Origin: Minisyncoccota bacterium
GTDB taxonomy: Bacteria; Patescibacteriota; Minisyncoccia; Phycocordibacterales; PALSA-1337
NCBI GenBank assembly: GCA_041666915.1
Contig: JBAYFZ010000001.1
Span: 286,335 to 350,334 of the forward strand
Reading direction: 5' to 3'
DNA length: 64,000 nucleotides
Every line of letters starts with the position of its first letter. Position 1 is the first letter of the stretch. Of the stretch, positions 9 through 53,395 are shown one piece after another. The notes below the pieces were generated by a model that saw only the letters and a program-made list of their open reading frames with translations, was not told where the DNA came from and searched no databases. The translations under genes and the position numbers were made by a program.

Positions 9-35
9 CCAACGTCTCTACCATGGAGACGTTTT
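9..35 (+). terminator. candidate rho-independent terminator (AACGTCTC-N7-GAGACGTT then TTTT)
   Basis: 8-bp inverted repeat followed by a T-run, read directly. Confidence 0.35.
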
Positions 36-77
36 CTATTGTACGCCAGCTATTCCATCTTAGAGGTGTTGCACCTT

Positions 78-166
78 GATAAGCACCTCAAAATCTTTCT
101 TGAGCTTACCCAGATTATTCGGGTTATAAACAGCAACGCAAGGATGATACAACACCACTATATCTC
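78..166. repeat. ~89-bp direct repeat copy 1; duplicate of the 3' coding end of the UDG gene (copy 2 at 1960-2048), one mismatch
   Basis: 81 identical bases gataagcacctcaaaatctttcttgagcttacccagattattcgggttataaacagcaacgcaaggatgatacaacaccac in both places. Confidence 0.9.
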
Positions 167-169
167 TAA

Positions 170-1873
170 TTATTTTCTCGAGACTAGATACGACCCAATC
201 GCTAATACATCAATATCAACCTCAAGAAACGCTTTTAATGCATCATCCGGCGAAAGTACAATTGGTCTACCTTTGATATTGAAAGATGTGTTTATAAACA
301 AAGGTGTACCAGACAAAGCATGATACGCTCTCAATAATTTGAAATATAAACCGTTGTCGCTTTCATTTATTGTCTGTGTTCTTACGGTACCATCAACATG
401 TTGAGCTGCTGGAACTTTTTCTCTAAGGTCTGATTTAATTGATTCAACAATAAGCATAAACGGTGATATGTAACCATGAACCAGCCAATCATTTTTGTAT
501 TCTTCAAGAATAGAGATCGCAAATGGTCTGAAAGATTCCCGTTGTTTTATCTTGTTAAGTCTTTCAACCATGCTATTTTCAACAGCTGGTGCAAGAATAC
601 TTCGTGAACCAAGTGCCCTAGGACCATACTCAAGTCTACCTTGAAAACACGCTACAATCTTTCCATTATTGAGTAATGTTGCTACTTTTTCATGGATCGC
701 ATCTTCTTTCGTAAATGAGACTTCATCTTTGTGAAGCCCTAAAGCATTTATGATTTCATCATCAGAATATTCTGGGCCAAGATAGGCATTGCGCATCTGA
801 CCTGGCTTTTTTCCAACATTAAACTCTTGCTGTAATAGATAGGCAGATCCAATAGACAAACCAGCATCATGTGAAGCGGGTTGAATAAATAAATCTTTAA
901 ATGCACTTTTCTCTAAAATCAACGCATTAACAACCGAGTTTAGACAAACACCGCCAGCCATAACTAAATTTGATTGCTGGGTGCGCTTATACACTTCTGC
1001 TAATTTTTCAAGAATAACTTTTTCTGTAAATACCTGTAGTGTTGCAGCAATATCCCTATGGATTTCTTTATCTTGTCCATGTTCGCAAGACTTTTCACCG
1101 AAAAAATCTTCAAACACTGGCGTAACATGTCCAGCTCCATCTCGATTATCAAAATACTTAGTGTCTGTAACAAACCAATTCGAGTCATTTTCTGGTTTAA
1201 ATGTAATCATTTTTTCAAACTCTTTCATATATTTTGGTCTGCCAAGTGCCGCAAAGGCCATCGTCGTGCCTGCTTTCGCCCACCCAGGTAAAAACCCGCA
1301 ATATTCACTTACGGCACCCCAAAGATTCCCTAAAGAATTAGGATGGTGAAGTGATCCAATTTGATTAACACCATTTTTATAATCAATTTTTCCCCAAATA
1401 CCAACTTCGTATTCTCCTCTACCATCAAGTGTAAAAAATGTAGCCTCATCAAATCCTGATGCATAAAATGCTGAAGCGACATGTGCGTGGTGATGTTTAT
1501 AATATCTTACAGCCACATTAGTATTGAGCTTCCCAATATATTTTTCAAAATCACTCTTGAGGAATAGTGACTTCCAGAATTTTCTCAAGCTATTTTTGAA
1601 CACTTTCCACGGTACATGATATTCAAAGATAAATTCCTTGATCATTCTCATGAACAACATCTCTCTTGGATGCCATGCTATGGCTATACCTTTTATATCC
1701 TGAGAAGTGATTCCAGCCTCTTTGAGACAATATTTGATTGAATTCACAGGAAAGGCATCCTCATGCTTTTTACTGGTAAAACGTTCCTCTTCTACCGCAG
1801 CAATAATTTTTCCGTTCTCATCTATAAGACAAGCACTACTATCATGTGAATATGTATTAAGTCCGAGATACAT
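170..1873 (-). CDS. carbamoyltransferase, NodU/CmcH family
   Basis: 567 aa; N-terminus MYLGLNTYSHDSSACLIDENGKIIAAVEEERF and overall length typical of NodU/CmcH O-carbamoyltransferases. Confidence 0.8.
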   Translation of the reverse strand: MYLGLNTYSHDSSACLIDENGKIIAAVEEERFTSKKHEDAFPVNSIKYCLKEAGITSQDIKGIAIAWHPREMLFMRMIKEFIFEYHVPWKVFKNSLRKFWKSLFLKSDFEKYIGKLNTNVAVRYYKHHHAHVASAFYASGFDEATFFTLDGRGEYEVGIWGKIDYKNGVNQIGSLHHPNSLGNLWGAVSEYCGFLPGWAKAGTTMAFAALGRPKYMKEFEKMITFKPENDSNWFVTDTKYFDNRDGAGHVTPVFEDFFGEKSCEHGQDKEIHRDIAATLQVFTEKVILEKLAEVYKRTQQSNLVMAGGVCLNSVVNALILEKSAFKDLFIQPASHDAGLSIGSAYLLQQEFNVGKKPGQMRNAYLGPEYSDDEIINALGLHKDEVSFTKEDAIHEKVATLLNNGKIVACFQGRLEYGPRALGSRSILAPAVENSMVERLNKIKQRESFRPFAISILEEYKNDWLVHGYISPFMLIVESIKSDLREKVPAAQHVDGTVRTQTINESDNGLYFKLLRAYHALSGTPLFINTSFNIKGRPIVLSPDDALKAFLEVDIDVLAIGSYLVSRK

Positions 1874-1953
1874 AGTGGTTAGTGAATTTTATTGATACTT
1901 TACTATACAATATATTTCTGTATCTTGAAATATCATACGGTCAGATAACCAAC

Positions 1954-2541
1954 CTAGCCGATAAGCACCTCAAAATCTTTCTTGAGCTTACCCAGATTAT
2001 TCGGGTTATAAACAGCAACGCAAGGATGATACAACACCACCATATCTATATCGCCATAACTCGCTTTTGCTTTATAAGACTTCCCATGAGCTTTGCCTAT
2101 CGGTTCCAATTGTGATCCTAAACCAAACTTCTCCATAACATAGCCCATAGCATAACGACCGAGTGCAACTACCACTCTTGGTTGAATGATCTCTATTTGC
2201 TTATCCAAAAATGGTCCGTAAATCTCTATTTCCTTTGGCGTTGGATCACGGTTTTCTGGAGGACGATCTTTGACTATATTAGTTATATAAATAGACTCAC
2301 GCTTAATTTTTACATGTTCCAAAAGCTTATCCAAGACTTTTCCCGCTGCTCCACAAAAAGGTTTACCTGTCTTGGCTTCATTCCTACCCGGAGCTTCTCC
2401 TATAAAAACTATTTCAGCATCATGACTTCCCTCACCTATTACAGGAAAAAAACCGTTGGTTGTACGGTATTCGTAAAGAGGAGATTCTTTGAGGTTAAGA
2501 ATTTTTTCTTCAATTTCTTTCATTCGTCCTTTCTTAGTCAT
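1954..2541 (-). CDS. uracil-DNA glycosylase, family 4 (phage SPO1 Pol-associated type)
   Basis: 195 aa; GEAPGRNEAKTGKPFCGAAG motif and C-terminal HPCVAVYNP typical of family-4 UDG. Confidence 0.8.
   Translation of the reverse strand: MTKKGRMKEIEEKILNLKESPLYEYRTTNGFFPVIGEGSHDAEIVFIGEAPGRNEAKTGKPFCGAAGKVLDKLLEHVKIKRESIYITNIVKDRPPENRDPTPKEIEIYGPFLDKQIEIIQPRVVVALGRYAMGYVMEKFGLGSQLEPIGKAHGKSYKAKASYGDIDMVVLYHPCVAVYNPNNLGKLKKDFEVLIG
1960..2048. repeat. ~89-bp direct repeat copy 2 (inside the UDG 3' coding region)
   Basis: identical to 78-166 apart from one base. Confidence 0.9.
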
Positions 2542-3484: not shown

Positions 3485-3513
3485 GAAAAAGGAAGCGGAA
3501 GCATCTTGTTGTT

Positions 3514-3614
3514 GCGTCATTCCCGCGAAGGCGGGAATCCAGGATTATTACGAACCATAAACTAGTAAATCGAGTGGTAACACACTGGATTCCCGCCTTC
3601 GCGGGAATGACGCA
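3514..3614. repeat. ~100-bp palindromic intergenic element (copy 1) with ~28-bp terminal inverted repeats GCGTCATTCCCGCGAAGGCGGGAATCCAGG; the core is ATTCCC-N8-GGGAAT
   Basis: inverted repeat read directly; second copy at 53276-53374. Confidence 0.8.
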
Positions 3615-3615
3615 A

Positions 3616-4710
3616 CTATATAATCACACCGCCACCAAGACATTTCTCACCATCATAAATAACCAAGGATTGCCCCGAGGATAGAGAATCCTGTGGTCTT
3701 TCAAATTCTATAACTGCTTCGGAAATGTTCGCGGAAATGATCTTTGCATTTTGAAGTGGTTGTCTATAACGGCCACGAACTTGTAGAGGTCTACCTATTT
3801 CAGGCATTTCTCCACTAACCCAATTCATAGAACCAATCCTTATTTGTTTATCAGTACTTGGTAATATCCCACTTTCATCTTTATTAGAAACCGTGATGGT
3901 ATTTTGTTCTGCATCTTTATCAATAATAAAATACGGCGCATCATGGGGTGTTTTTACCGTCAAAGTAAAACCTCGACGTTCACCTTTTGTAAATAACAAA
4001 GCACCAGGATGATTTCCTATAATTTCCCCTTTTTCATTCAAAACATTTCCAGAGGTGGATTTTATATAATGTGACAAAAATTCCTTTACATCCACTTTAC
4101 CAATAAAACACAAACCCTGACTATCTTTCTTTTCTGCATTTGGTAATTTGAATTTCAAAGCCAATTTTCTAACTTCTGGCTTGGTGAGATGACCGACTGG
4201 AAAAAGTATATGTTGTAAATCTTTTTGATTCAGAGTCCAAAGAAAATACGACTGGTCTTTATTTTTGTCTGTACCAGCAAGTAGTGAATAATTGGAATTA
4301 GCGTCACCACTTTGTAGTACCTGTGCGTAATGACCTGTAGCAACGAAATCTGCACCTTGTTCCAAAGCCCATTTTGAGAAAGCACCAAATTTTACGTAAC
4401 GATTACACATCACATCAGGATTTGGAGTCCTACCAACAGAATATTCTTTGACCATATAATCAATGACGTCCTTCTTGTATTCATTGACCAGATCCAAGGT
4501 AACAAAAGGAATATCAAGGTGAGCAGCTGCTCGTATTGCTTCCAAACGTTCCTCCTTCCAATTACATTCTATCCAATCTGGTTGCCAAACTTTGATGAAA
4601 ACACCCGTAACATCAAAACCTGCCCGCTTCAGTAAGCCGGCAGATACAGAACTATCAACCCCACCAGAAAGGCCAACAAAGACTTTTCCTTTTTTTACCC
4701 CTTTTTTCAT
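3616..4710 (-). CDS. mnmA: tRNA 2-thiouridine(34) synthase MnmA
   Basis: 364 aa; PP-loop VGLSGGVDSSVSA at N-terminus and overall MnmA/TrmU architecture. Confidence 0.9.
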   Translation of the reverse strand: MKKGVKKGKVFVGLSGGVDSSVSAGLLKRAGFDVTGVFIKVWQPDWIECNWKEERLEAIRAAAHLDIPFVTLDLVNEYKKDVIDYMVKEYSVGRTPNPDVMCNRYVKFGAFSKWALEQGADFVATGHYAQVLQSGDANSNYSLLAGTDKNKDQSYFLWTLNQKDLQHILFPVGHLTKPEVRKLALKFKLPNAEKKDSQGLCFIGKVDVKEFLSHYIKSTSGNVLNEKGEIIGNHPGALLFTKGERRGFTLTVKTPHDAPYFIIDKDAEQNTITVSNKDESGILPSTDKQIRIGSMNWVSGEMPEIGRPLQVRGRYRQPLQNAKIISANISEAVIEFERPQDSLSSGQSLVIYDGEKCLGGGVII

Positions 4711-7076: not shown

Positions 7077-7190
7077 TAGTGCAAAGTGAAAAGTGCAAAA
7101 TGCAAAGTTGTAGTTATTAGTGAATAGTTAAGGAACTTAATAACTTTTCACTAAAACTTTGCATTTTGCACTTTTCACTTTTAACTAGAT
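7077..7190. repeat. large intergenic palindrome: ~27-bp arms AGTGAAAAGTGCAAAATGCAAAGTT / AACTTTGCATTTTGCACTTTTCACT separated by ~50 bp; partial copy at 53241-53266
   Basis: read directly. Confidence 0.75.
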
Positions 7191-8456: not shown

Positions 8457-11450
8457 TTAGGCAACAACTATGTTTACGAGCTTATTTGGGACTACAATAA
8501 CTTTACGAATCTCCTTCCCTTCCAGCCACTTCTTAACTTCTGGAACTTCTTTGGCTAGTCTTTCTATATCTTCTTTACTTGTATCGGTCGGAGCTGTGAA
8601 TGAACCGCGAATCTTCCCACTAACCTGAACCATGATAGTAACCTCATTTTCCACCACCTTTTTGGGGTCATATACGGGCCATGGTGAGACGTGTATTGAT
8701 TTCTTGTTACCAAGTAAGGACCATAGTTCTTCAGTAAAATGTGGAGCAAATGGTGCGAGCAACTGGAGTATAGTTTCGTACTGTTTGCGACTAATAGAAA
8801 CAGATTTTTCCAATTCGTTTATGGCGATCATAAGAGCACTCACAGCTGTATTGAAACGCATTGCTTCAATATCGTCAGTGATCTTCTTTATAGTTTTATG
8901 GATAATCGCATCCACGTCTGCGCACTCTTTGGGCTGTGCCAGTTTCCCCTTCGTATCAACCTTTTCTCGAAGTTTCCAAACACGTTCAATGAATCTCCTA
9001 GTACCAACTATACTAGATGTACTCCAAGCAATCTGTTGATCAAAAGGACCCATAAACATCTCATAAAGTCTGAGGGAATCGGCTCCGTAATTTCCAACTA
9101 TTTCATCAGGATTGATAACATTTCCAAAACGTTTGGACATTTTTCTACCATCTTCCCCCATGATAAGACCGACATGTTGAAGTTTCAAAAATGGTTCTAT
9201 ATTGGAAACCACGCCGATATCATACAAAAATTTATGCCAAAAGCGAGCATAAATAAGATGTCGAGTAGCATGTTCAGCTCCACCTACATACACATCAACT
9301 GGTGACCAATACTTTTCCTTTTTTGGGTCAACGAGAACTTTGTTATTTTCTGGATCTTCATATCTCAAATAATACCAAGAGGAACCCGCCCATTGTGGCA
9401 TAGTATTGGTCTCTCTTTTGGCTGAACCTTTGCAGACTGGACACTTTACATTTACCCATTTTGAAATAGTAGCGAGTGGAGACTCTCCTGTTCCTGTAGG
9501 TTCATAAGATTTGACTCTTGGCAAAATGACAGGAAGATCTTTTTCTGGTACAGGAACAATGCCTTTTCCTTCAGGATTTATAAGAGCACAATTTTCGCAG
9601 CGAATGACTGGTATTGGTTCACCCCAATAACGTTGGCGAGAGAATACCCAATCTCGTAATTTGAATTTTGTAACCCACTGTCCACCAACCGATTCTGTTA
9701 TTTCTTTCTTAACTGATCCGGAAGATTTACCGTCAAATTTGCCGGAATTGATAAGTTTTCCATCTCCAGTAAAACAATTGGAGTTGGAGATATAAGCATT
9801 CCACATCAATTCAAAAGCAGAAAGATTCAACCAAGTCTTCATATCACTTCTTTTTATCCAAACTGTTTTATGGTTGACAACTTCTTCTTCTTTTACTATT
9901 GATTTTTCCTCATCCAATAATCTAAAAAGTACGCCTTGCCCAAAAGCATACCTATTAACATCCTTATGAGCAGCAAAGAAATGATTATGTTGTTCCATAC
10001 CTAAATCTTTTACATACTCAATATGAATGTATCCTGTTTCTTCTTTTATTTCACGAGCAGCAGCATCTTTATATGATTCACCATCATCAACTCCTCCAAT
10101 TATCCCCGAATGCCAATTAAACTTCTCCCAATCCAAACACAAAAACCTATCATTTTTCTCATCTAATAAAAGAGCGTAAATCGTTTTTCTCTTAACGGTT
10201 TCTTTATCTGGTCTAACATGATCTTTTCCTTCGCTATTAGTAGCGTAAGGTGCAATAACTTGTTTTATCTGTAACCCATACTTCTTTGCAAAAGCAAAAT
10301 CCCTCTCATCATGTGCTGGTACTGCCATGACAGCTCCTGTACCATATTCAGCCAAAACATAATCCGCTATCCAAACAGGAACCTCTTCATTGTTGACAGG
10401 ATTGACTGCTTTGACACCTTTCAACTCAACACCAGTCTTTTCTTTACCAGCATCCGTACGTTCAATATCAGTCTGTTTCTTGGTTTTATTTATATAATCC
10501 TCTACTTCTTGACGATTCTCAATATTTTTCAAAAATTCTGTCACTAACTTATGCTCTGGTGCCAAAACAACATAAGTCACACCAAATAATGTGTCTGGAC
10601 GAGTTGTATATACGTCTATTGTATCGTCATTTTTTATATTTGATTCTTGATTTTTAATTTTGAACTTTATCTCTGCTCCTTCACTTCTTCCTATCCAATT
10701 TCTCTGTAAGATCTTTATTGATTCCGGCCAATCAAGAAGTGGTATATCAAGATTTTTCTTAGCATCCAAATCATTGAGCAATCTCTCTGCGTAATCAGTA
10801 ATACGTAAAACCCACTGCCTCATAGGCTTCTTCTCCACCAACGTACCACAACGTTCACAGTGACCATCTTCTACATCTTCATTTGCCAAACCAGTTTTAC
10901 AAGAAGGACACCAATTGATAGGTTCAAACGATTCATAAGCCAAACCCTTTTTTAACAATTGCAAAAATATCCACTGAGTCCACTTATAATATTTTGGATC
11001 AGTAGTATTAACTTCACGTGACCAATCGTAATCAAAACCCATTATTTCCAATTGTTTTTTGTACCTAGCTACATTCTTTTTAACAGAATCCGCTGGATTG
11101 GTTTTTGTTTTCAAAGCATAATTCTCTGCCGGTAAACCAAAAGCATCAAATCCCATTGGATGAAGGATAGAATATCCAGCCATTCTCTTGTAACGAGAAA
11201 TGATATCGGTAGCTATATAACCTTTTGGATGACCAACATGGAGACCTTCACCAGATGGATATGGGAACATATCTAGCACATAATATTTCGGTTTCTTATT
11301 ATCTTCTTTAGATCTAAAAACCTTGGAACTCTCCCACTTCTTTTGCCACTTTTTCTCTATCTTAGCAGAATCGTAAACCGAAACTTTCGCAGTCACCTTC
11401 TTTGCAACCTTTACGGCTGTCTTTTTGGTTTTTTGGCTAGTCTTCTTCAT
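8457..11450 (-). CDS. leuS: leucyl-tRNA synthetase with an inserted Nudix-hydrolase-like domain
   Basis: 997 aa; HVGHPKG (HIGH), TTRPDTLFG editing motif, KMSKR, LRDWVFSRQRYWGEPIP; Nudix box GGVDDGESYKDAAAREIKEETGY at aa ~452-474. Confidence 0.95.
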   Translation of the reverse strand: MKKTSQKTKKTAVKVAKKVTAKVSVYDSAKIEKKWQKKWESSKVFRSKEDNKKPKYYVLDMFPYPSGEGLHVGHPKGYIATDIISRYKRMAGYSILHPMGFDAFGLPAENYALKTKTNPADSVKKNVARYKKQLEIMGFDYDWSREVNTTDPKYYKWTQWIFLQLLKKGLAYESFEPINWCPSCKTGLANEDVEDGHCERCGTLVEKKPMRQWVLRITDYAERLLNDLDAKKNLDIPLLDWPESIKILQRNWIGRSEGAEIKFKIKNQESNIKNDDTIDVYTTRPDTLFGVTYVVLAPEHKLVTEFLKNIENRQEVEDYINKTKKQTDIERTDAGKEKTGVELKGVKAVNPVNNEEVPVWIADYVLAEYGTGAVMAVPAHDERDFAFAKKYGLQIKQVIAPYATNSEGKDHVRPDKETVKRKTIYALLLDEKNDRFLCLDWEKFNWHSGIIGGVDDGESYKDAAAREIKEETGYIHIEYVKDLGMEQHNHFFAAHKDVNRYAFGQGVLFRLLDEEKSIVKEEEVVNHKTVWIKRSDMKTWLNLSAFELMWNAYISNSNCFTGDGKLINSGKFDGKSSGSVKKEITESVGGQWVTKFKLRDWVFSRQRYWGEPIPVIRCENCALINPEGKGIVPVPEKDLPVILPRVKSYEPTGTGESPLATISKWVNVKCPVCKGSAKRETNTMPQWAGSSWYYLRYEDPENNKVLVDPKKEKYWSPVDVYVGGAEHATRHLIYARFWHKFLYDIGVVSNIEPFLKLQHVGLIMGEDGRKMSKRFGNVINPDEIVGNYGADSLRLYEMFMGPFDQQIAWSTSSIVGTRRFIERVWKLREKVDTKGKLAQPKECADVDAIIHKTIKKITDDIEAMRFNTAVSALMIAINELEKSVSISRKQYETILQLLAPFAPHFTEELWSLLGNKKSIHVSPWPVYDPKKVVENEVTIMVQVSGKIRGSFTAPTDTSKEDIERLAKEVPEVKKWLEGKEIRKVIVVPNKLVNIVVA
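9816..10193 (-). other. Nudix (MutT-like) domain inserted in the CP1/editing region of LeuRS
   Basis: perfect Nudix box G-x5-E-x7-REUxEExGU plus flanking beta-strand pattern. Confidence 0.75.
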
Positions 11451-11458
11451 ATCCGAGA

Positions 11459-11487
11459 ATCATAGCTCAAAATGAAGAATGTTTCAA
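11459..11487 (-). promoter_or_regulatory. sigma70-like promoter of leuS: TTGAAA-17 nt-TATGAT, 8 nt before the ATG (near-leaderless)
   Basis: hexamers and spacing read directly; the whole 58-bp block (11449-11506) is duplicated at 12527-12584. Confidence 0.4.
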
Positions 11488-11514
11488 AAGGAAAATGTGA
11501 TTTATTTTTGTGGT

Positions 11515-12537
11515 TCAATTATTAGCCCCAATTATCTTTTTCACTTCTCTATCAAAATCAGATTCAATATTTTGGTGCTTATTAAATTCCCTGTATTCAA
11601 AAATTGCCTTTGAATCAGCATCGGCTTTAGAAACACGTCCTTTTCCATCAAGGATCTTATACTCATTAAAAGAAAGAAACTTATCTACGCTTTCAGCAAA
11701 TTTTTTCATCGTAAATGTATTGCTTCTTTCAATCAAACCTTCAATATAATCAAAAAAACCTACAACCGTTCGTTCTAACTTCTTAATTTCGTTTTCTTCT
11801 AAATAATTTTTTGCAACGATAACATCAGATTGTAAGATTCTACCTACTGGTGATTTCTTCCACGTCAAAAGACCCATATGTGGTTTTTTAGAGTCTACTT
11901 TATTATAAATTATCTCTGGAGCAGTTTTACCAGTAATTGCAAAGTGAAATTTATTCTGCACCATTGCATAAAACTCATGACTGATACTGGAATCTTTATC
12001 GTAATCAACACTACATTCAGCAAAAATATCTGTTATTTGTTGGTAGATACGACGCTCACTCGCCCTAATTGAGCGAACGCGTTCAAGTAGTTCTTGAAAA
12101 TAGTCTGCATTAAATAACTTTCTACCCTGTTTCAAACGCTCATCATCAAGCACAAACCCTTTAATAATAAATTCACGAAGCACCTGTGTTGCCCAGATAC
12201 GAAAATGTGTAGCTCTTTTAGAATTTACTCTATACCCTACTGCAATAATCGCATCTAAATTGTAATAGGTTAGACTACGCTCAATATCTCTCCCTCCTTC
12301 ATTTTGAACTTGTAAGAAATCCTTACAAGTTGAATCCTTCACTAATTCACCAATTTCATAAACATTCTTCAAATGAAGCGTGATATTTTGTGGTGTAGTA
12401 TCAAAAAGCTCAGCTATCAACTTCTGGGTTAGCCAAATCATTTCTCCTTCTATACGGACTTCGACTTTAGGATCACCATTTTCTGTTGAAAAAATGAGAA
12501 ACTGAGCAGTAGTTTGTAGAAAATTAGTCTTCTTCAT
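11515..12537 (-). CDS. RhuM-family virulence/DNA-binding protein
   Basis: 340 aa; YYNLDAIIAVGYRVNSKRATHFRIWATQVLREF is characteristic of the RhuM family. Confidence 0.8.
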   Translation of the reverse strand: MKKTNFLQTTAQFLIFSTENGDPKVEVRIEGEMIWLTQKLIAELFDTTPQNITLHLKNVYEIGELVKDSTCKDFLQVQNEGGRDIERSLTYYNLDAIIAVGYRVNSKRATHFRIWATQVLREFIIKGFVLDDERLKQGRKLFNADYFQELLERVRSIRASERRIYQQITDIFAECSVDYDKDSSISHEFYAMVQNKFHFAITGKTAPEIIYNKVDSKKPHMGLLTWKKSPVGRILQSDVIVAKNYLEENEIKKLERTVVGFFDYIEGLIERSNTFTMKKFAESVDKFLSFNEYKILDGKGRVSKADADSKAIFEYREFNKHQNIESDFDREVKKIIGANN

Positions 12538-12545
12538 ATCCGAGA

Positions 12546-12574
12546 ATCATAGCTCAAAATGAAGAATGTTTCAA
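12546..12574 (-). promoter_or_regulatory. duplicated copy of the leuS promoter, driving rhuM
   Basis: 58-bp identity (12527-12584 vs 11449-11506) including the first four codons ATGAAGAAGACT. Confidence 0.4.
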
Positions 12575-12621
12575 AAGGAAAACCCCACTGTTCGCTTTCG
12601 CTACTAAGTGGGGTTGTGACG

Positions 12622-31854: not shown

Positions 31855-33936
31855 CTAATCTACCGCTAGAAACATGTGATCGATCATTGCGACCCGAGAC
31901 ACGCTGTCGTTGCTTTTTATCTTCAGTCCGAATTCTTCTTTATTTATTGGAAGGTCGACTACAATTTTCTGTATGAAGCCTGGATCAGTCTTCGTGAAGG
32001 TTCCAACAAGATCGTCTCCGTTGTACAAATCAAAACTAAATGGCTTGTCGCTGAATACCGCAATCGACCCATTTGCATGGTTATCAGTAGTCATAAAGAA
32101 TGTGACTCCGTTGCAATTTATAGGATCGCCAATTTGCGGAAAACTTTGATATTGCTGGCGGCGATAGATCGGTGCTTCGCCGAGATTTTCATTCCATCCG
32201 ATGCCCCTACACATCATATTTGTGGTCGTGAGTATGCCGTTGATCAGAGTTACTTTTGCCCCTGAGATTCGAGTACTTTCGTAGCGATAGACATAGAAAC
32301 TGGTCGCATCGACCGGCTTGACGTACATAAGGCCGTTACCCCATTGATCAGAGGGATAATAGCTGCTGCTTGCAAGAGTCGTGTTCGTTCCCGATATGCT
32401 GAGAAGACCGAACTTCTGACGATCACGTCCTTGAAACTGCACCGTACCCCAATGAGCAAAGAATACGAATGTGTCTGTTGTGAGTTGATGCAGGAATTGA
32501 TATCGATACGAATAATTTGTGTCGAAACTAATCTGCACACCTGCTTGTACCGTAATTGTACTTCCTGAAGTCGTCACCACAGCCGAGTACCATCCACCTG
32601 AGCCGATGTAGGCAATCTGACACTTATCCGTTCCGTTTGGCGCAAGTTGAGGTTTTGATGTGGAAGCAATGCTTGCAAGTGATCCGTAAGACGGGACCGT
32701 TCCCGATACTGAAATACAGTAAAGGTTAATCGCTCCACCAGTCTCAAAGGCAATGATGGCTTTGTCGGTCCCTACTTTTACGAGCTGTTTATAACTTGGA
32801 GCAATAGCTACAATCTGGACCGGCGTATTAAGAGCTATACCGGTTCCAGAAATTGTCAGAACTGCTGTGTGAATATAATTTGACGCACCATTTGGAAGCG
32901 CCATCAAAACTTTGTCAGTGTTTATAACTACTGCATCGAAGTTATCGTTGTACCAGTCGACTGTGTACATGAGAAGTGGCGCACCCCAAGTAATCGTCCC
33001 ATTCACATTTGTATTTCCCACCACCGCATAGATTCCAGTTGTACCTGCCTGCTGACGATAAAAAGCAATGAAGCGAGATGAATCAAGTTCAAGAGTTTTG
33101 AATACGGCATTACCAGTGCTTTTTGCAAATGGAGACGACAATATTTGACTTTCAATATCACGAAGTTTTGTGTACACCGAGATAGTTTTGACAGTCCTAA
33201 TACGACGTTCAAGAAAATTTGGAGACCACATTTTTCTTGTAGCACCTGCACTAATCCAATAATCTCCATCAGGAAATTCTCGAACGATGTCTTGCTGGAT
33301 ACCGAACGCCCGATCCTCATCTCCGTCCCACGAGCTTCGGCCGATATAACATAATTCTCGGTTGGCGTACTGCTGTCCAGTAGAAGTATTGAACGCGCCT
33401 CGATAAGCTGGCATGATTACTGAATCAGCGTCACTTGCTACAGCACCTGCTCGATAGGTTCCGAGTGTCGCCGCATCAAAGGCATTCGGAGATACAAGGG
33501 TCGAAGTTGAGGTGATTGAATTGCCAGAAGTACCACCGACTTTTGCGGTGACAATAACGTCATTACCAATAATAGCAGTCGCCTCCACATCCCCATTGAG
33601 AGAGGTTGCTGATGCATATTGGCTTCCTGGAAGACCTGAGAGATTTATTGCTGCCATAACATTGGCACGAGTTGCTGCAACATTTCCACCGATTACGATC
33701 TGGCCGTCCGTGTTGGTGACAAGACTTGCAACAAAGGAGTAGGTCTTTGTACCTATCGTTATGGTTTCGCCGGCTGTCGGCTGATTTTGAAGTGTCAACT
33801 TCCCTTGTGCTTTAATTGCTGGCCACAGAAAGAGTCCGGGTTTATTCCACTCCACATATCTTGGAAGCGGAGAAATCTGTTGGCCCTTTACGGTTGTTGT
33901 TTTATCTATTCTTCGATCTACTTGTAAATTAATCAT
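31855..33936 (-). CDS. tail fibre / receptor-binding protein candidate
   Basis: 693 aa, Thr/Ser/Gly-rich beta-type composition in the tail module. Confidence 0.45.
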   Translation of the reverse strand: MINLQVDRRIDKTTTVKGQQISPLPRYVEWNKPGLFLWPAIKAQGKLTLQNQPTAGETITIGTKTYSFVASLVTNTDGQIVIGGNVAATRANVMAAINLSGLPGSQYASATSLNGDVEATAIIGNDVIVTAKVGGTSGNSITSTSTLVSPNAFDAATLGTYRAGAVASDADSVIMPAYRGAFNTSTGQQYANRELCYIGRSSWDGDEDRAFGIQQDIVREFPDGDYWISAGATRKMWSPNFLERRIRTVKTISVYTKLRDIESQILSSPFAKSTGNAVFKTLELDSSRFIAFYRQQAGTTGIYAVVGNTNVNGTITWGAPLLMYTVDWYNDNFDAVVINTDKVLMALPNGASNYIHTAVLTISGTGIALNTPVQIVAIAPSYKQLVKVGTDKAIIAFETGGAINLYCISVSGTVPSYGSLASIASTSKPQLAPNGTDKCQIAYIGSGGWYSAVVTTSGSTITVQAGVQISFDTNYSYRYQFLHQLTTDTFVFFAHWGTVQFQGRDRQKFGLLSISGTNTTLASSSYYPSDQWGNGLMYVKPVDATSFYVYRYESTRISGAKVTLINGILTTTNMMCRGIGWNENLGEAPIYRRQQYQSFPQIGDPINCNGVTFFMTTDNHANGSIAVFSDKPFSFDLYNGDDLVGTFTKTDPGFIQKIVVDLPINKEEFGLKIKSNDSVSRVAMIDHMFLAVD

Positions 33937-33950
33937 GGTAAAAAATTTAA

Positions 33951-34724
33951 TTAATGGATAATGCTTGTGATCCTTCCCTCGACATCTCTAATTGACCATT
34001 TCTTCACTCCGTCATAGATGCTTCGAAGTAGTTGATTGTCGTCATACTCGAACACGAAGGTCTTTCCGTTCACGTTGTCGTGAAGAGACCTCACGCTGCC
34101 ATCTGCATTTATCGCAACATCGACATACTCAAGTCCCGCTTGAATACCAGAAAGAGCTGCAGCCATGAGCTGAGAAAGTGTTACGGGCTGTGATGCACTC
34201 ACCGCATTTGGAACATTTGGTGAATTGATAAAATTATTGTTGCCTGAAAAAGTATTATTGCCGTTTGTCGATGCTTTTCCTGCAAGATTAGTGTCTACAT
34301 ATCCTTTCGAAACGACTTGTTTTGAATCATTAAAAGCAGGGTCTGCATCGTATTTAATTGGCTTTGTGGAATCGAGAGTATCATCACCATTTAGGATATC
34401 AACAATGATTTTGAGGTTCACGAAATCTGTCAGATAGCATTTTGATCCAGCTCTATGCCCGTTTAAGTTTTGGACTCCGGCGGTTTGGACACCTTGTCTC
34501 GAAACACTGAAAATACTAGTCATAGTTGTACCTGAGAGGTCAAACAAGAGATGCTCTTCATCACCAGTTCCTCGGTCGATAATCATGCAATATCTGCCTA
34601 CTGGCAGGTTTACGCCGTTCTTATCTGTGATGCTAGTTAGAGCTCCTGAAGTAGCACCGCTTGCAAGCTTTGTAGCAAGTGATGTTTCGAAGTTTGCGAT
34701 TACTTTTGTGAGTTTGCTCGACAT
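33951..34724 (-). CDS. tail fibre protein candidate
   Basis: 257 aa; ASQPVTLSQLMAAAL motif common in fibre proteins. Confidence 0.45.
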   Translation of the reverse strand: MSSKLTKVIANFETSLATKLASGATSGALTSITDKNGVNLPVGRYCMIIDRGTGDEEHLLFDLSGTTMTSIFSVSRQGVQTAGVQNLNGHRAGSKCYLTDFVNLKIIVDILNGDDTLDSTKPIKYDADPAFNDSKQVVSKGYVDTNLAGKASTNGNNTFSGNNNFINSPNVPNAVSASQPVTLSQLMAAALSGIQAGLEYVDVAINADGSVRSLHDNVNGKTFVFEYDDNQLLRSIYDGVKKWSIRDVEGRITSIIH

Positions 34725-34744
34725 GGTTTAATTATTTACTCTAA

Positions 34745-34770
34745 AAAATGTGAAAAAGTGTGTGCAATCA
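34745..34770 (-). promoter_or_regulatory. conserved 26-nt motif AAAATGTGAAAAAGTGTGTGCAATCA (copy 1), 20 nt upstream of the tail-fibre gene start
   Basis: identical 26-mer also at 39630-39655 and 42910-42935. Confidence 0.5.
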
Positions 34771-36669
34771 TTGATCCACATCTTTGCCATCTAGGCTCAC
34801 ATGTTCCTTTTGTCTATAGACTTTTGGTAGTTTGTCTTCATAGGTCAGGATGTCCCAATCTATCGATTCCATAATGCTCACGTACCCGATACCTTTAGCT
34901 ACAAATCGAATACTTCTTCGTCTAAATTTGGGTATTTTCATTGCTTTTATCTGAAGCTCATATGGGTATACCTGAGCTGCACCATCGCCACCGATAGCCG
35001 CTTCACCGATCATCGTCGTTCCCACACTTGATGGGCTTGATCGGTTAACGTACGTTCCATCGCCTCGAATCGTTCCAACAAGAGCGTATCCGGCGCCATC
35101 AAAGTCGGCATATACTTCTACATACTGAGCAGGATCTATTTCGCCTCGATAACGCAAGCGACGGTATTTTTTGAGTCGTCGAACACCATAAGTCTCATAT
35201 TTGCTATCCCAGTTATTTTGGATTACATAACTATCATCATCGAAGCCATTCAGGATTTTATAGACAGTTTGAGTGTGGGGACTTCCGCCATAGAGGACAC
35301 CAGAATCCTTGATGAGTGCTTTCATTCCGTAGTTTGAGATGTCCACAGTATTTTTTACTATGTCGATAACGAGAGTGCGATCGTTTACAATGCTTGATTG
35401 GGCGCGACAAGAGAGGACAATAAATTGTCCGTAGGTTTCCATCACCGCATCCGAATAATCAAATTTCTCCCATGCAAAATGTGGAATGAGTTCAGTCGCA
35501 AGAATGTCATCGCCGAGAGGATTCTTTTCGAGAACCGTGAGTTGAGGGCGATCTGGGTTTGCGGTATTTATAAAAACGACACCTCGGCCAGTTGTGACTG
35601 AGCTTTTTCGTGTAAGAACACCAATATTTCTTCGGACCACCTGGTTGTTAAATGTCTTATCATCGTCAGTGTATTTGTGCTGATACGCACTTTGCTTTTT
35701 TAGTGAGTAGTAGTTTCCATCGATACCAATCACGAGCTGTTGGATTGCATCACCACCTTCATCCTGACGGATTACGTCACCTTCACCCGCAAGACGAGAT
35801 GCGCTGTAAGTAAAATCTGCAACCCCTTTGCTTGTACTATTTTCCCAGACATAGTCTGCCTTGATATTATTCGCTGAGGCTGAAGGTATGGTTACGAAAG
35901 TGACGCTCCATGCACCTGTAATGTAATTTATAGTTCCTACGCCTCCAGCAGTTCCCTTAAGGTTTCCATTTTTATCATCAGTAAATATTTCACCTCCACC
36001 GTCAGTACACTTGATAGTTACGAGTCCGCAGTTTCGCTTCGGCTGACCTGACTTAAATAGAAGAGTGCCAGTGAATATTGTCTGTGATCCGTTTCCACTT
36101 CCGACATTCTCGTTTGATATTTGTGTAAAGCTTGTGCCGTCGCGCTGTACGTCAACATAACTTCGATAAAGTGCTGTCGCATCTTTTGCAATGCCCCAGA
36201 GATACATGCGAGCCTTGTCAATCAGAGGAAAACCGCAGAAAAAGTCAGTCGTAGTATAAAGCTGAATAAAGTTGCTGGGATTTGCGTTAGCAAATTTAAA
36301 TAATCCTCCAGGACCGCCTGCAAATGTCCATGCCCCGGTCAGTGAGCTGTAGTTTGTAAAAATGTAGATATCGTTTGGATTGAGACCAGTGACGACATCT
36401 ATCCAAGTAGTGCCATTCAGATACTGAATGGCTGTCGCTACTTTTCTCCAAAGAATGCCTGTACCATTTGCTTTGTATCCGACATGAATTGCAGGACATG
36501 AACCTGCTGCACCCTCGCTTCCGACTGTCACCTTCCCTCTGGCGAGTTCAAGCTTCCCATCAATGGTCACCCAATTGAGGGAGTCTCTAGCACTATCTTT
36601 TGGAGTATCCTCGTTATCTTCACGATTATGTACTCCCGATGCAAATTTTTTGATTTCATGATCTGCCAT
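34768..36669 (-). CDS. phage structural (tail) protein
   Basis: 633 aa, position between capsid and fibre genes. Confidence 0.4.
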   Translation of the reverse strand: MADHEIKKFASGVHNREDNEDTPKDSARDSLNWVTIDGKLELARGKVTVGSEGAAGSCPAIHVGYKANGTGILWRKVATAIQYLNGTTWIDVVTGLNPNDIYIFTNYSSLTGAWTFAGGPGGLFKFANANPSNFIQLYTTTDFFCGFPLIDKARMYLWGIAKDATALYRSYVDVQRDGTSFTQISNENVGSGNGSQTIFTGTLLFKSGQPKRNCGLVTIKCTDGGGEIFTDDKNGNLKGTAGGVGTINYITGAWSVTFVTIPSASANNIKADYVWENSTSKGVADFTYSASRLAGEGDVIRQDEGGDAIQQLVIGIDGNYYSLKKQSAYQHKYTDDDKTFNNQVVRRNIGVLTRKSSVTTGRGVVFINTANPDRPQLTVLEKNPLGDDILATELIPHFAWEKFDYSDAVMETYGQFIVLSCRAQSSIVNDRTLVIDIVKNTVDISNYGMKALIKDSGVLYGGSPHTQTVYKILNGFDDDSYVIQNNWDSKYETYGVRRLKKYRRLRYRGEIDPAQYVEVYADFDGAGYALVGTIRGDGTYVNRSSPSSVGTTMIGEAAIGGDGAAQVYPYELQIKAMKIPKFRRRSIRFVAKGIGYVSIMESIDWDILTYEDKLPKVYRQKEHVSLDGKDVDQ

Positions 36670-36672
36670 AAA

Positions 36673-37296
36673 TTAGACGAGTTTAAATCTGGCATCTCGG
36701 AGCTTCATATTCTTCATGTAACGCTGGTACTGGACCGCATTGTCCTGCATATTGCTGCGAGCCTTTTCAGACTTCTTTATAATTTCCTCATCAATAAGCA
36801 TCGAAAAGACAATCATTGGATGATATTCAGGTGGCAACTTGGGAGACGTGCCGACTGCAATGTCATCAGGACTGGTTTTGTAATCAAATTCATACGAAGC
36901 TCCTGCACCTGGGCTTTGTGCAAAGTTTATTTTTCCATCCGATGGATCTATCCAACAAACATTGCAGAATTGATTGGCATTTCTCTGTCCCATTGGCACA
37001 AAGTAATAAGGGCTTCTCTGGCTTCCTATAAAAATGACTTTGAGAATAGGTTCATTCTGATCTTCGCTGTAGTTTTCCATCAACTCGTCAAAGTCAGCTG
37101 GTACAGTAATCTTTCCATCACTTTCAACTACACCAGTCTTTTTTCTTCGTAGAAATTCCCACGGCTGTTCCATGTAAATGAGACGCAGTTTGTCATTCGC
37201 AAGAATAAGCTCCTCATCGCTCGACAGATCAGTTGTGTCGTCTGTATAAAGCTCGAAGCGTTCTATGATTTGTTGTCCTGTAAGTGGTGTTGCCAT
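36673..37296 (-). CDS. hypothetical phage structural protein (head-tail connector region)
   Basis: 207 aa, position only. Confidence 0.35.
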   Translation of the reverse strand: MATPLTGQQIIERFELYTDDTTDLSSDEELILANDKLRLIYMEQPWEFLRRKKTGVVESDGKITVPADFDELMENYSEDQNEPILKVIFIGSQRSPYYFVPMGQRNANQFCNVCWIDPSDGKINFAQSPGAGASYEFDYKTSPDDIAVGTSPKLPPEYHPMIVFSMLIDEEIIKKSEKARSNMQDNAVQYQRYMKNMKLRDARFKLV

Positions 37297-37386
37297 ATTT
37301 TTTATGCTTCCCAGTGGCAGAAGTAGTCCATTAGCAGTTCTACTTCTGCCACTGAGCCCCAGCGTGAGCTGAGGTCAGCGGAATCC

Positions 37387-38589: not shown

Positions 38590-38635
38590 AAGAGGAATAA
38601 AATTAAGTGAATAAATTTACCCTCTCAGATATCAA

Positions 38636-39502: not shown

Positions 39503-39629
39503 AATTGTTTACGTTTTTATGCAATGGTTTTCGCCCCATTGATGCTCGATTGAAACGCAGAGCATTAGCGCCGTTACCTTTTTATTAATAAGAGGTTGGC
39601 CCCTCTATGCTTATAAGTGTGTAGCACTA

Positions 39630-39655
39630 AAAATGTGAAAAAGTGTGTGCAATCA
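39630..39655 (-). promoter_or_regulatory. conserved 26-nt motif copy 2, just downstream of a bidirectional terminator and upstream of the scaffold/capsid module
   Basis: identical 26-mer. Confidence 0.5.
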
Positions 39656-39663
39656 ATTAAAGA

Positions 39664-39694
39664 AAAATCACCGGTTAACCGATGATTTTTTCTT
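39664..39694. terminator. near-palindromic terminator AAAAATCACCGGTTAACCGATGATTTTT
   Basis: read directly. Confidence 0.5.
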
Positions 39695-39726
39695 GATAAT
39701 TCCTTTACTTTTTCTTTATCTTTTCT

Positions 39727-40490: not shown

Positions 40491-40507
40491 GGTATGACAA
40501 CGAGATA

Positions 40508-40831: not shown

Positions 40832-40861
40832 AATTTTATTGATTAAATTAAATAATAATTG

Positions 40862-42886: not shown

Positions 42887-42909
42887 GATTATTTAAGTGT
42901 AGATACAAA

Positions 42910-42935
42910 AAAATGTGAAAAAGTGTGTGCAATCA
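42910..42935 (-). promoter_or_regulatory. conserved 26-nt motif copy 3, overlapping the TerL stop codon and 23 nt upstream of the portal start
   Basis: identical 26-mer. Confidence 0.5.
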
Positions 42936-53248: not shown

Positions 53249-53275
53249 AGTGCAAAATGCAAAGTTTTATTACGT

Positions 53276-53374: not shown

Positions 53375-53395
53375 ACACGCAAGAATGACGCGACT

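What the first reader, a model, noticed from the sequence alone, without database searches (positions are those of the whole stretch)
78..2048. Carbamoyltransferase gene bracketed by an ~89-bp duplication of the UDG 3' end
The last roughly 27 codons of the family-4 UDG gene (1960-2048) reappear at 78-166, just beyond the stop of the carbamoyltransferase gene (170-1873). The carbamoyltransferase, which has somewhat higher GC than its neighbours, is thus flanked by direct repeats of host sequence. As with rhuM, this is an insertion signature with an unusually long target duplication. It could reflect a cassette-insertion mechanism or recombination between duplicated gene ends.
Basis: seen in the sequence. 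Interest (0 to 1): 0.5.

Follow-up and report, generated by a model that had tools for sequence, protein, structure and literature searches.

The report
Gene insertion duplicating UDG gene end
In a tiny-genome (CPR/Paceibacterota) bacterium, a single carbamoyltransferase gene was recently inserted just behind a DNA-repair gene, and the insertion copied that gene's last 91 bases so the repair gene stayed intact; this is a real but fairly ordinary recombination scar, with no mobile-element enzyme nearby.

Summary
Window 78-168 and 1960-2050 are a 91-nt direct repeat (89/91 identical) bracketing a one-gene O-carbamoyltransferase (CTase) unit on the minus strand. Three assemblies support the junctions. 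A third, shorter copy (58 nt, 91%) lies 1.5 kb beyond the window's left edge. So the UDG 3' end occurs three times, with three different tails, in a nested series.

Relatives share a conserved backbone ending UDG-[variable]-AlaRS, so this is an insertion hotspot. The CTase unit (about 62 nt of promoter-like DNA plus the ORF) sits in unrelated contexts in other genomes. Its GC equals its neighbours', so the "higher GC" claim fails. No integrase, transposase, terminal inverted repeats or attC were found, and successive events do not share breakpoints.

rhuM shows the mirror image: a perfect 58-nt duplication of the leuS promoter and first four codons, fused in frame.

Best explanation (about 0.5): integrase-independent recombination anchored on the conserved gene end, with one illegitimate joint (Campbell- or HFIR-like). 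Only duplicating insertions survive, because they keep the flanking housekeeping genes intact. Rivals are an integrase acting in trans, or a staggered break or template switch. It is a new member of a known kind, of modest interest.

The parts
1954..2541 (-). Family-4 uracil-DNA glycosylase gene (195 aa), intact. Its present last codon and stop (GGC TAG) come from the inserted DNA.
   Evidence: Pfam UDG 2.8e-32. NCBIfam UDG_fam4 189.5 bits, above cutoff. Homologs are at most 82% identical and mostly end …DFE[VI]LKKYV.
1960..2050 (-). Repeat copy 1: the last 30 sense codons (minus the final Gly) of the functional UDG.
   Evidence: 91 nt, 89/91 identical to 78-168.
1937..1959 (-). 23-nt junction filler GGCTAGGTTGGTTATCTGACCGTAT of unknown origin. 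It supplies UDG's new Gly-stop tail.
   Evidence: Unique in the window. It lies between the end of repeat identity and the start of homology with the L063 CTase unit.
1874..1936 (-). Promoter-like leader that travels with the CTase gene.
   Evidence: DNA homology to the 87%-identical CTase locus L063 starts at L001 9939, about 62 nt upstream of the ATG. Weak sigma-70-like match ATGATA-16-TATATT.
170..1873 (-). O-carbamoyltransferase (567 aa, NodU/CmcH/TobZ type): the inserted cargo.
   Evidence: Carbam_trans_N 1.2e-57 and Carbam_trans_C 1.1e-59. PDB matches to 7xb6 (deposited as 'Carbamoyltransferase', best hit), TobZ, GdmN and the novobiocin carbamoyltransferase, down to 8.8e-79. Homologs at 70-87% sit in other contexts.
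78..168 (-). Repeat copy 2: a non-functional remnant of the UDG 3' end, starting 2 nt after the last base of the CTase stop codon. It keeps the family-typical Ile (ATA) where the live gene has Met (ATG).
60..77 (-). Earlier UDG tail (…IKVQHL*, AAGGTGCAACACCTCTAA), now stranded behind the CTase.
   Evidence: It shares AAGGTGCAAC with copy 3's tail.
11..33 (.). Bidirectional terminator-like hairpin AACGTCTC…GAGACGTT that followed the earlier UDG tail.
   Evidence: Terminator scan, both strands (L001 11841-11863).
11438..11495 (-). leuS-proximal copy of a perfect 58-nt repeat: promoter-like TTGAAA-N17-TATGAT, 5' UTR and the first 13 nt of leuS (MKKT).
11515..12537 (-). rhuM (340 aa), a relocated accessory gene fused in frame to leuS's first four codons. 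It is a second insertion-duplication in the same genome.
   Evidence: Pfam Virulence_RhuM 4.1e-106. Relatives start M[DE]KDN[IL]PQKNTTAQ… while ours starts MKKT|NFLQTTAQ. The closest relative sits VKOR-RhuM-Fic, and DNA homology covers only the ORF body 12513..11519.
12525..12582 (-). Distal copy of the 58-nt leuS promoter and start repeat, now driving rhuM.
   Evidence: 100% identical to 11438-11495.

Best explanation
What is shown:
- The stretch between UDG and AlaRS is a gene-gain hotspot in this Paceibacterota lineage.
- A one-gene O-carbamoyltransferase unit, carrying its own roughly 62-nt leader, was recently inserted there.
- In gene orientation the locus now reads: UDG, repeat copy 1, a new 2-codon tail, filler, the CTase unit, repeat copy 2, the earlier tail and terminator, a 1.5-kb older insert, repeat copy 3, the original terminator hairpin, then the cytidine deaminase gene.
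- The structure is nested and no recombinase gene is nearby.

What is inferred:
- Each insertion was made by general recombination rather than a dedicated mobile-element enzyme.
- Incoming DNA came from a related genome that carried the UDG 3' end followed by different downstream genes.
- One joint was homologous, within the UDG 3' end. The other was illegitimate, next to the cargo ORF.
- This could be Campbell-type integration of a circularised fragment, or the equivalent homology-facilitated illegitimate recombination.
- Either route leaves the homologous segment duplicated on both sides of the insert.
- In a compact genome, only events that duplicate the gene end (or, at rhuM/leuS, the promoter and start codon) keep the flanking housekeeping genes working. 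That would explain why these are the events seen.
- DNA uptake by natural transformation is plausible for this group of bacteria.
For: Insertion at a hotspot:
- Six relative lineages share the backbone LeuRS-sigma70-DUF8128-YceG-MnmA-ATPcone/Mrr-UDG-[variable]-AlaRS. The variable slot holds different contents in each, and never CTase.
- The CTase unit's homology with L063 runs from 62 nt upstream of the start to the stop codon. That nearly coincides with the inner edges of the repeats.
- Other close homologs sit after NUDIX, or in HAD-CTase-150aa trios at unrelated sites.

Nested series:
- There are three copies with three different tails (IG*, IKVQHL*, IKVQP*).
- All 3 differences between copies 2 and 3 in the shared coding block are synonymous. 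That is expected of two functional UDG alleles, meaning one came in with donor DNA, and not of random decay.

No dedicated machinery:
- Pfam lists for the 21.7 kb of L001 around the CTase show no integrase, recombinase or transposase.
- No terminal inverted repeats were found.
- Repeat lengths vary (91, 58, 58, 30 nt). Both boundaries differ between event 1 and event 2.
- The UDG and leuS repeats share no motif.

Other support:
- The mirror-image rhuM/leuS case has an in-frame fusion at codon 5, where the two genes' starts are similar (about 9 of 13 nt against L072's start). That fits a microhomology joint.
- CTase composition equals the host's, fitting a closely related donor.
- Repeat lengths are in the range usable by RecA-type recombination (my knowledge of minimal processing segments, not tested here).
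- Natural competence is demonstrated in Saccharibacteria, and com genes are conserved across CPR phyla (PMC10633639).
Against: - No donor arrangement was found, meaning UDG ending …EVLIG* followed by CTase without copy 2.
- No empty-site allele was found either. The UDG's 90% cluster has a single member.
- The copy 1/copy 2 and rhuM repeats are 98-100% identical, which equally fits an in-situ target duplication.
- Classical HFIR usually gives deletions rather than duplications (my knowledge).
- Microhomology at the CTase/copy 2 joint is only 1-2 nt.
- One of the two copy 1/copy 2 mismatches (ATA to AGA, Ile to Arg) would not be expected in a functional donor allele.
- Competence is not shown for Paceibacterota, and com genes were not looked for in this genome.
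Confidence: 0.5

Rival explanations
1. Site-specific integration by a tyrosine or serine integrase acting in trans. On this view the UDG 3' end is an attB. The CTase unit and the older 1.5-kb segment are integrase-less, att-flanked remnants that accreted in tandem, like cis-mobilisable elements (CIMEs) next to ICEs, or cargo-only modules in tRNA-proximal islands.
For: - The target is the 3' end of a conserved gene, and the gene is restored by element-borne sequence.
- There are tandem nested copies of the same gene end.
- The original UDG end carries an 8-bp-arm palindrome, ATCAAGGT-GCA-ACCTTGAT, and both right-hand breakpoints fall inside or at its foot.
- A prophage-like region elsewhere in the window means a phage integrase may exist in the genome.
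Against: - No integrase lies in the 21.7 kb of L001 around the CTase.
- Both boundaries of identity differ between the two nested events.
- The palindrome scores as an ordinary intrinsic terminator. In L068 it is replaced by an unrelated stem-loop at the same place.
- It is absent elsewhere in the window.
- The rhuM event has a different target with no shared motif. It is also an in-frame 5' fusion, which is atypical for integrases.
- Two viral-contig scans found no element carrying the UDG end.
Confidence: 0.2
2. In-situ target duplication. Foreign DNA was captured at a staggered double-strand break, with nicks 58-91 nt apart that were filled in. Alternatively, a replication template switch left the chromosome, copied a gene-sized foreign template, and returned upstream of its departure point. 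Either way the duplication is made from the recipient's own sequence. An unknown enzyme could also be responsible.
For: - The rhuM repeat is 100% identical and the CTase repeat 98% identical.
- Repeat length is variable.
- Insert edges fit tightly around single ORFs.
- A 23-nt filler of unknown origin sits at one junction, and fillers are typical of end-joining or template switching.
Against: - The synonymous-only differences between copies 2 and 3 argue for an imported allele in the older event.
- The identity between copies 1 and 2 ends exactly where conserved UDG coding gives way to the lineage-variable tail. That is expected if a donor allele diverged there, and would be a coincidence for a random nick.
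- No evidence of end-joining genes was sought or found.
Confidence: 0.2
3. Assembly artefact or strain chimera. On this view the repeat reflects mis-joining of two strains' contigs, or a free circular CTase molecule collapsed into the chromosome.
For: - The data are metagenomic.
- The Logan contig L002 breaks inside both repeat copies, showing branches in that sample's assembly graph.
Against: - The assembly k (141) exceeds the repeat length.
- JGI contig L004 independently spans UDG body, copy 1 and CTase at 99.98%.
- L002 contains both junction sequences at 100%.
- Copy-specific mismatches are linked to their own flanks.
Confidence: 0.03
4. The 78-166 copy is the end of a complete second UDG paralogue.
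For: None beyond the sequence similarity itself.
Against: - The copy is the 3' end of a minus-strand gene, and its 5' side abuts the CTase stop codon inside the window.
- The contig beyond the window edge shows only an 18-nt tail, a terminator and non-coding DNA.
Confidence: 0

Closest known systems
Insertion-duplication by Campbell-type single crossover, and homology-facilitated illegitimate recombination (HFIR), in naturally transformable bacteria
   Same: Foreign DNA is integrated using one short stretch of homology plus one illegitimate joint. No element-encoded recombinase is needed. Campbell-type products carry the homologous segment as a direct repeat on both sides of the insert. HFIR is described in three naturally competent species and in E. 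coli conjugation (abstract of PMC3240628, listed).
   Different: These are known mainly from laboratory constructs and selection experiments. Here it would be a natural, repeated route of single-gene gain in an uncultured CPR bacterium. Typical HFIR products carry deletions rather than duplications (my knowledge). No donor was identified.
Integrase-less att-flanked islands and tandem accretion at the 3' end of a conserved gene (CIME-type elements beside ICEs; the small integrase-less microcin H47 island of E. coli)
   Same: There are direct repeats of a gene-end sequence flanking cargo that lacks its own recombinase, and tandem arrays at one site. The H47 island lacks a site-specific recombinase and recombines between short direct repeats (abstracts of PMC3191183 and PMC5426353, listed).
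   Different: Those repeats are fixed att cores used by a known integrase or a defined site. Here the boundaries differ between events, no integrase is nearby, and a second locus (rhuM/leuS) uses an unrelated sequence.
Transposon or IS target-site duplications
   Same: A direct duplication of target sequence flanks inserted DNA.
   Different: Such duplications are short (2-15 bp) and of fixed length per element, and come with terminal inverted repeats and a transposase. Here the repeats are 30-91 nt and variable, with no inverted repeats and no transposase.
TobZ/GdmN/NovN/NodU-type O-carbamoyltransferases (the cargo gene)
   Same: The two-domain architecture is the same (Kae1/TsaD-like N-terminal domain plus YrdC-like C-terminal domain). 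Full-length matches to solved structures reach 8.8e-79.
   Different: The substrate is unknown. NodU equivalog score is 169 bits against a cutoff of 1000, so it is not NodU itself. In more distant relatives it sits with a HAD hydrolase and a 150-aa protein that are missing here.

Membership tests
Integrase-mediated genomic island / CIME-type accretion | Direct repeats (attL/attR) of the target flank the element | tested here: met
   91-nt repeat around the CTase and 58-nt repeat around the older segment.
Integrase-mediated genomic island / CIME-type accretion | An integrase or recombinase gene in the element or in an adjacent element at the same site | tested here: not met
   No recombinase, integrase or transposase Pfam family among the called genes in the 21.7 kb of L001, which holds 10 kb on either side of the CTase. 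The small ORFs have no family hits.
Integrase-mediated genomic island / CIME-type accretion | Successive integrations use the same crossover core | tested here: not met
   Copy 1/2 identity runs from -91 to …CTTATC. Copy 2/3 identity runs from about -58 to …CTTATCAAGGTGCAAC. Both edges differ.
Integrase-mediated genomic island / CIME-type accretion | Excision to a circular form and re-integration | not testable with these tools
   This needs reads or an experiment.
Transposon / insertion sequence | Terminal inverted repeats and a transposase, with a short fixed-length target duplication | tested here: not met
   No inverted repeats at the insert ends. No transposase. The duplication is 91 nt, and 58 and 30 nt elsewhere.
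Integron gene cassette | An attC recombination site at the cassette end and an IntI integrase with attI nearby | tested here: not met
   The repeated sequence is UDG coding DNA, not an attC-like imperfect palindrome. No integrase is present. No Rfam match was found in L001 9000-14500.
Campbell-type / HFIR insertion-duplication | The insert is flanked by a direct duplication of a segment homologous to the recipient target | tested here: met
.
Campbell-type / HFIR insertion-duplication | One joint is illegitimate, at microhomology | tested here: inconclusive
   The CTase/copy 2 joint allows only 1-2 nt of ambiguity. At the rhuM/leuS joint the two gene starts match at about 9 of 13 nt, comparing L072's ATGGAAAAAGACA with leuS's ATGAAGAAGACTA.
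Campbell-type / HFIR insertion-duplication | A donor exists in which the homologous segment and the cargo are adjacent | tested here: not met
   No UDG-CTase adjacency in any other locus retrieved. The databases hold no UDG closer than 82%.
Family-4 uracil-DNA glycosylase | Score above the curated cutoff of the family-4 model | tested here: met
   TIGR00758 UDG_fam4 189.5 bits against a cutoff of 125.3.
NodU/CmcH/TobZ O-carbamoyltransferase | Both Carbam_trans_N and Carbam_trans_C domains over the full length | tested here: met
   196.3 and 201.3 bits against cutoffs of 24 and 27. Full-length matches to 7xb6, TobZ, GdmN and the novobiocin carbamoyltransferase.

The most novel reading that the evidence does not exclude
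CPR/Paceibacterota bacteria might have a dedicated but unrecognised way of adding single genes. It would be a duplicative insertion process, either an unknown nicking or integrating activity or a transformation-coupled pathway. It would create variable 30-90-nt duplications of the neighbouring gene's 3' end, or of its promoter and start codon. Genes could then be slotted between tightly packed housekeeping genes without breaking them. The UDG-AlaRS and leuS sites would be two examples of this.
Probability: 0.1. Interest if true: 0.7.

Novelty: new member of a known kind. Interest (0 to 1): 0.35.

Why it matters
CPR bacteria have very small, tightly packed genomes, and how they gain accessory genes is poorly documented. 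This locus gives a clean, dated series: three nested copies of one gene end, plus a mirror-image case at leuS in the same 64 kb. Single genes entered between housekeeping genes with no mobile-element enzyme in sight. Each time, the duplicated gene end or promoter kept the neighbours functional.

If this is general, such duplications would be a simple sequence signature for finding recent gene gains and hotspots in metagenome-assembled CPR genomes. The repeats should also allow the cargo to loop out again. That predicts presence/absence polymorphism for the CTase in natural populations.

Tried and rejected
- **Metagenome scan:** the scan for the 18-mer common to all three copies (GATTTTGAGGTGCTTATC) returned 26 loci. 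All were chance matches with no UDG context.
- **Viral-contig scans:** one used the 18-mer and one a degenerate YHPCVAVYNPNN pattern. Neither found anything.
- **Species-representative genomes:** 22 UDG loci at no more than 78% identity, none with a duplicated UDG end.
- **Hairpin as a recombination site or dispersed repeat:** I considered this for AAGGTGCAACCTT and rejected it as the main explanation. It is absent elsewhere in the window. It scores as an intrinsic terminator. L068 has an unrelated stem-loop at the same position.
- **L016 repeats:** these are low-complexity intergenic hairpin and promoter elements, not gene-end duplications.
- **28-nt triple repeat at 34.7-42.9 kb:** this is a motif between phage structural genes, not an insertion scar.
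- **The 1.5-kb segment between copies 2 and 3:** no Rfam family beyond a spurious hit, no tRNA, and no phage DNA match. The ORFs tested there (the 80-aa and 81-aa ORFs) had no Pfam or PHROG hits, and the 80-aa ORF no NCBIfam hit. There is no remnant of PepM3 or of any other gene found in the relatives' slots.
- **GC-rich stretch upstream of the L063 CTase:** no Rfam match.
- **Shared motif between the UDG and leuS repeats:** none above the shuffle level.
- **Pre-insertion UDG allele:** I considered an exact-sequence lookup and dropped it, because the UDG's 90% cluster has a single member.
Full report
**1. The observation**

The window holds a 91-nt direct repeat at 78-168 and 1960-2050, 89/91 identical, with a spacing of 1882 nt. 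Both genes lie on the minus strand.
- UDG runs 2541..1954. Pfam UDG scores 2.8e-32. NCBIfam UDG_fam4 scores 189.5 bits against a cutoff of 125.3.
- The carbamoyltransferase (CTase) runs 1873..170. It has both Carbam_trans_N and Carbam_trans_C, and full-length matches to solved carbamoyltransferases (7xb6, TobZ, GdmN, the novobiocin enzyme) down to 8.8e-79.

In gene orientation, copy 1 is the last 30 sense codons of UDG minus its final Gly and stop. Copy 2 begins 2 nt after the last base of the CTase stop codon. The two mismatches lie within 10 nt of the CTase-proximal edge. One of them is ATG (Met) in the live gene against ATA (Ile) in the remnant, and Ile is the residue in most of the 119 other homologs inspected.

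The claim of higher GC fails. CTase GC is 0.370 and GC3 0.269. Neighbouring genes range 0.336-0.406 and 0.252-0.342.

**2. It is real, and not a second paralogue**

- The source is a 450,810-bp MEGAHIT k141 contig, ERZ27249449, so k exceeds the repeat length.
- A JGI contig from another sample (L004) matches at 99.98% across UDG body, copy 1 and CTase.
- A Logan contig from a third data set (L002) matches at 100%. It covers the end of copy 1 and its junction with the CTase unit, the whole CTase, and the CTase-copy 2 junction.
The copy is the 3' end of a minus-strand gene, so the rest of a paralogue would have to lie where the CTase is.
- The contig beyond the window's left edge shows only an 18-nt tail (…IKVQHL*), a bidirectional terminator-like hairpin and non-coding DNA.

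**3. The extension: a nested series**

About 1.5 kb beyond copy 2, outside the window (L001 13300-13357), lies a third copy of the UDG end. It is 58 nt and 91% identical to copy 2.

In gene orientation the locus reads:
1. UDG with copy 1
2. tail 1 (IG*)
3. a 23-nt filler
4. the CTase unit
5. copy 2
6. tail 2 (IKVQHL*) and a terminator
7. about 1.45 kb holding one unannotated 80-aa ORF on the opposite strand
8. copy 3
9. tail 3 (IKVQP*), which overlaps a stem-loop ATCAAGGT-GCA-ACCTTGAT that scores as an intrinsic terminator
10. the cytidine deaminase gene

Identity between copies 1 and 2 ends at …CTTATC. Identity between copies 2 and 3 runs 10 nt further, to …AAGGTGCAAC. The upstream edges also differ, at about -91 and -58. 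Within the coding block shared by copies 2 and 3, all three differences are synonymous (Leu, Leu, Lys). Two functional alleles would look like that; a decaying fragment would not.

**4. Comparative context**

The closest UDG homologs in 5.8 billion proteins are no more than 82% identical, and the UDG's 90% cluster has a single member. So no empty-site allele is available.

Contexts of six relative lineages show a conserved backbone: LeuRS, sigma70, DUF8128, YceG, MnmA, ATP-cone/Mrr, UDG, a variable slot, then AlaRS. The slot holds:
- PepM3 alone
- two small opposite-strand ORFs plus PepM3
- an IS66 fragment

In our genome the slot holds about 7.5 kb of accessory genes: CTase, the 1.45-kb segment, cdd, a 171-aa ORF, HIT, two small ORFs and an aldo-keto reductase. 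PepM3 is absent, and no remnant of it is detectable.

The L057 lineage also carries duplications in this slot:
- A 30-nt repeat of the UDG-end hairpin brackets a 936-nt insert.
- A 60-nt repeat (hairpin, promoter-like stretch and ATGAAA) precedes both PepM3 and AlaRS.

None of 22 more distant UDG loci has a duplicated UDG end.

**5. The cargo is a relocatable one-gene unit**

- The closest CTase homolog (87% protein identity, L063) shares DNA with ours from L001 9939 to the stop codon. That start is about 62 nt upstream of the ATG and includes a weak promoter-like match. Its flanks are unrelated.
- Homologs at 70-76% follow a NUDIX gene, or sit in HAD-CTase-150aa trios at two unrelated chromosomal sites. 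None is next to UDG.
- The unit's edges nearly coincide with the inner edges of the repeats.
- Between copy 1 and the unit lies a 23-nt filler. It is unique in the window and supplies UDG's new Gly-stop.

**6. A second case in the same window**

rhuM (12537..11515) is flanked by a perfect 58-nt repeat, at 11438-11495 and 12525-12582. The repeat contains a promoter-like TTGAAA-N17-TATGAT, the 5' UTR and the first 13 nt of leuS.
- Relatives of RhuM start M[DE]KDN[IL]PQKNTTAQFLIF. Ours starts MKKT|NFLQTTAQFLIF, so leuS's first four codons are fused in frame.
- The closest RhuM homolog (82%) sits between VKOR and Fic genes. DNA homology with ours covers only the ORF body.
- The UDG and leuS repeats share no motif above the shuffle level.
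- Across 73.8 kb of this genome these are the only gene-end duplications.
- Across 350 kb of related loci, only the L057 lineage shows the like. L016's repeats are low-complexity intergenic elements.

**7. What is absent**

- No integrase, recombinase or transposase family is present among the called genes of L001, which holds 10 kb on either side of the CTase.
- There are no terminal inverted repeats at the insert ends.
- No tRNA, and no credible Rfam family, was found.
- No viral contig carries the UDG end.
- The 1.5-kb segment has no phage DNA match.
- The hairpin is not dispersed in the window. A relative (L068) has an unrelated stem-loop at the same place. It is therefore best read as UDG's terminator.

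**8. Mechanism**

*Shown:* a recent insertion of a one-gene unit at a hotspot, with duplication of the adjacent gene end. It is nested on an older event of the same type, and a mirror case exists at leuS. No dedicated machinery is nearby, and breakpoints are not shared.

*Inferred (about 0.5):* general recombination anchored on the conserved gene end plus one illegitimate joint, either Campbell-type integration of a circularised fragment or the HFIR equivalent. The donor DNA would come from related genomes. Three points support this:
- the synonymous-only differences between copies 2 and 3
- the host-like composition of the cargo
- the fact that copy 1/2 identity ends exactly where conserved UDG coding gives way to the lineage-variable tail

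Natural competence is demonstrated in Saccharibacteria, and com genes are conserved across CPR phyla (PMC10633639). It has not been shown for this organism.

Selection explains the pattern. In a genome where genes abut, only insertions that duplicate the gene end, or the promoter and start codon, leave both neighbours functional.

*Rivals:*
- An integrase acting in trans, with CIME-like accretion (about 0.2)
- In-situ duplication at a staggered break or by template switching (about 0.2), favoured by the 98-100% identity of the two young repeats and by the filler
- An assembly artefact (about 0.03)

**9. Comparison and verdict**

The structure works like laboratory insertion-duplication or HFIR, and superficially resembles att-flanked integrase-less islands. 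It fails the defining tests for transposons, integron cassettes and integrase-borne islands. The donor required by the favoured model was not found.

It is a new, well-resolved instance of a known kind of recombination scar in an under-studied group. It is of modest interest (0.35). There is a small chance (about 0.1) that it reflects a dedicated duplicative gene-insertion process in CPR bacteria.

Noticed in passing
L001 13300-13357 (about 1.43-1.48 kb left of window position 1): Third, older copy of the UDG 3' end (58 nt, 91% to copy 2; …NLGKLKKDFEVLIKVQP*). It overlaps a terminator hairpin, just upstream of a cytidine deaminase gene. All three differences in the shared coding block are synonymous.
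   Followed up: yes
window 11438-12582: rhuM is flanked by a perfect 58-nt duplication of the leuS promoter, 5' UTR and first four codons. rhuM is fused in frame to leuS's start, and its closest relative sits in a VKOR-RhuM-Fic context.
   Followed up: yes
window about 31855-44621 (minus-strand genes): Phage-like structural module, judged by eye from the ORF translations and not tested against any family library. It includes a 562-aa terminase-like ORF, a 674-aa portal-like ORF, a 400-aa capsid-like ORF and large tail or fibre-like ORFs. A perfect 28-nt motif AAAAATGTGAAAAAGTGTGTGCAATCA sits in three intergenic gaps (34743, 39629, 42908) and is probably a repeated phage promoter. This may be a prophage in a CPR genome.
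   Followed up: partly
window 3511-3616, 53274-53384; also 7077-7187 and 53231-53269: GC-rich palindromic element (GTTGCGTCATTCCCGCGAAGGCGGGAATCCAG with a perfect 32-nt inverted partner), and an A/T-rich 'GTGCAAA' inverted-repeat element. Each is present at two places about 46-50 kb apart, and the two are adjacent to each other at about 53.2 kb. These could be REP-like elements or the boundaries of something larger.
   Followed up: no
L057 8576-8605, 9512-9577, 11391-11452: In a relative (UDG 78% identical) the UDG-end hairpin GCCGAGGT-GCA-ACCTCGGC recurs before PepM3 and, with its loop inverted, before AlaRS. At both sites it is followed by the same 37-nt promoter-like stretch running up to ATGAAA. 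The stem differs from ours by paired changes that keep the pairing.
   Followed up: partly
L063 about 700-930: A GC-rich, structured-looking stretch of roughly 230 nt lies immediately upstream of the 87%-identical CTase unit, on an otherwise AT-rich contig. It has no Rfam match, and could be an unrecognised RNA gene or a foreign fragment.
   Followed up: partly
L001 12057-12293 (left of the window): A 37-nt inverted repeat (81% complementary) encloses 163 nt within the gene-less 1.1-kb stretch between copies 2 and 3. It is MITE-like or a structured element, and its identity is unknown.
   Followed up: no
window 8457-11450 (LeuRS) and relatives L056, L068: The leucyl-tRNA synthetase carries an inserted NUDIX domain (997 aa here). 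In relatives it is 1127-1347 aa, with two NUDIX hits and, in L068, a Ser_hydrolase hit. This is an unusual domain accretion in a housekeeping enzyme.
   Followed up: no
UDG homologs P0001-P0120: The UDG C-terminal tail after …DFE[VI]L is highly variable among close homologs (KKYV, PRCNLGN, QRCDLDN, ITEASPQR, IQYTHL and others). In some, the tail is a read-through of a downstream hairpin, which suggests repeated remodelling of this gene end.
   Followed up: partly
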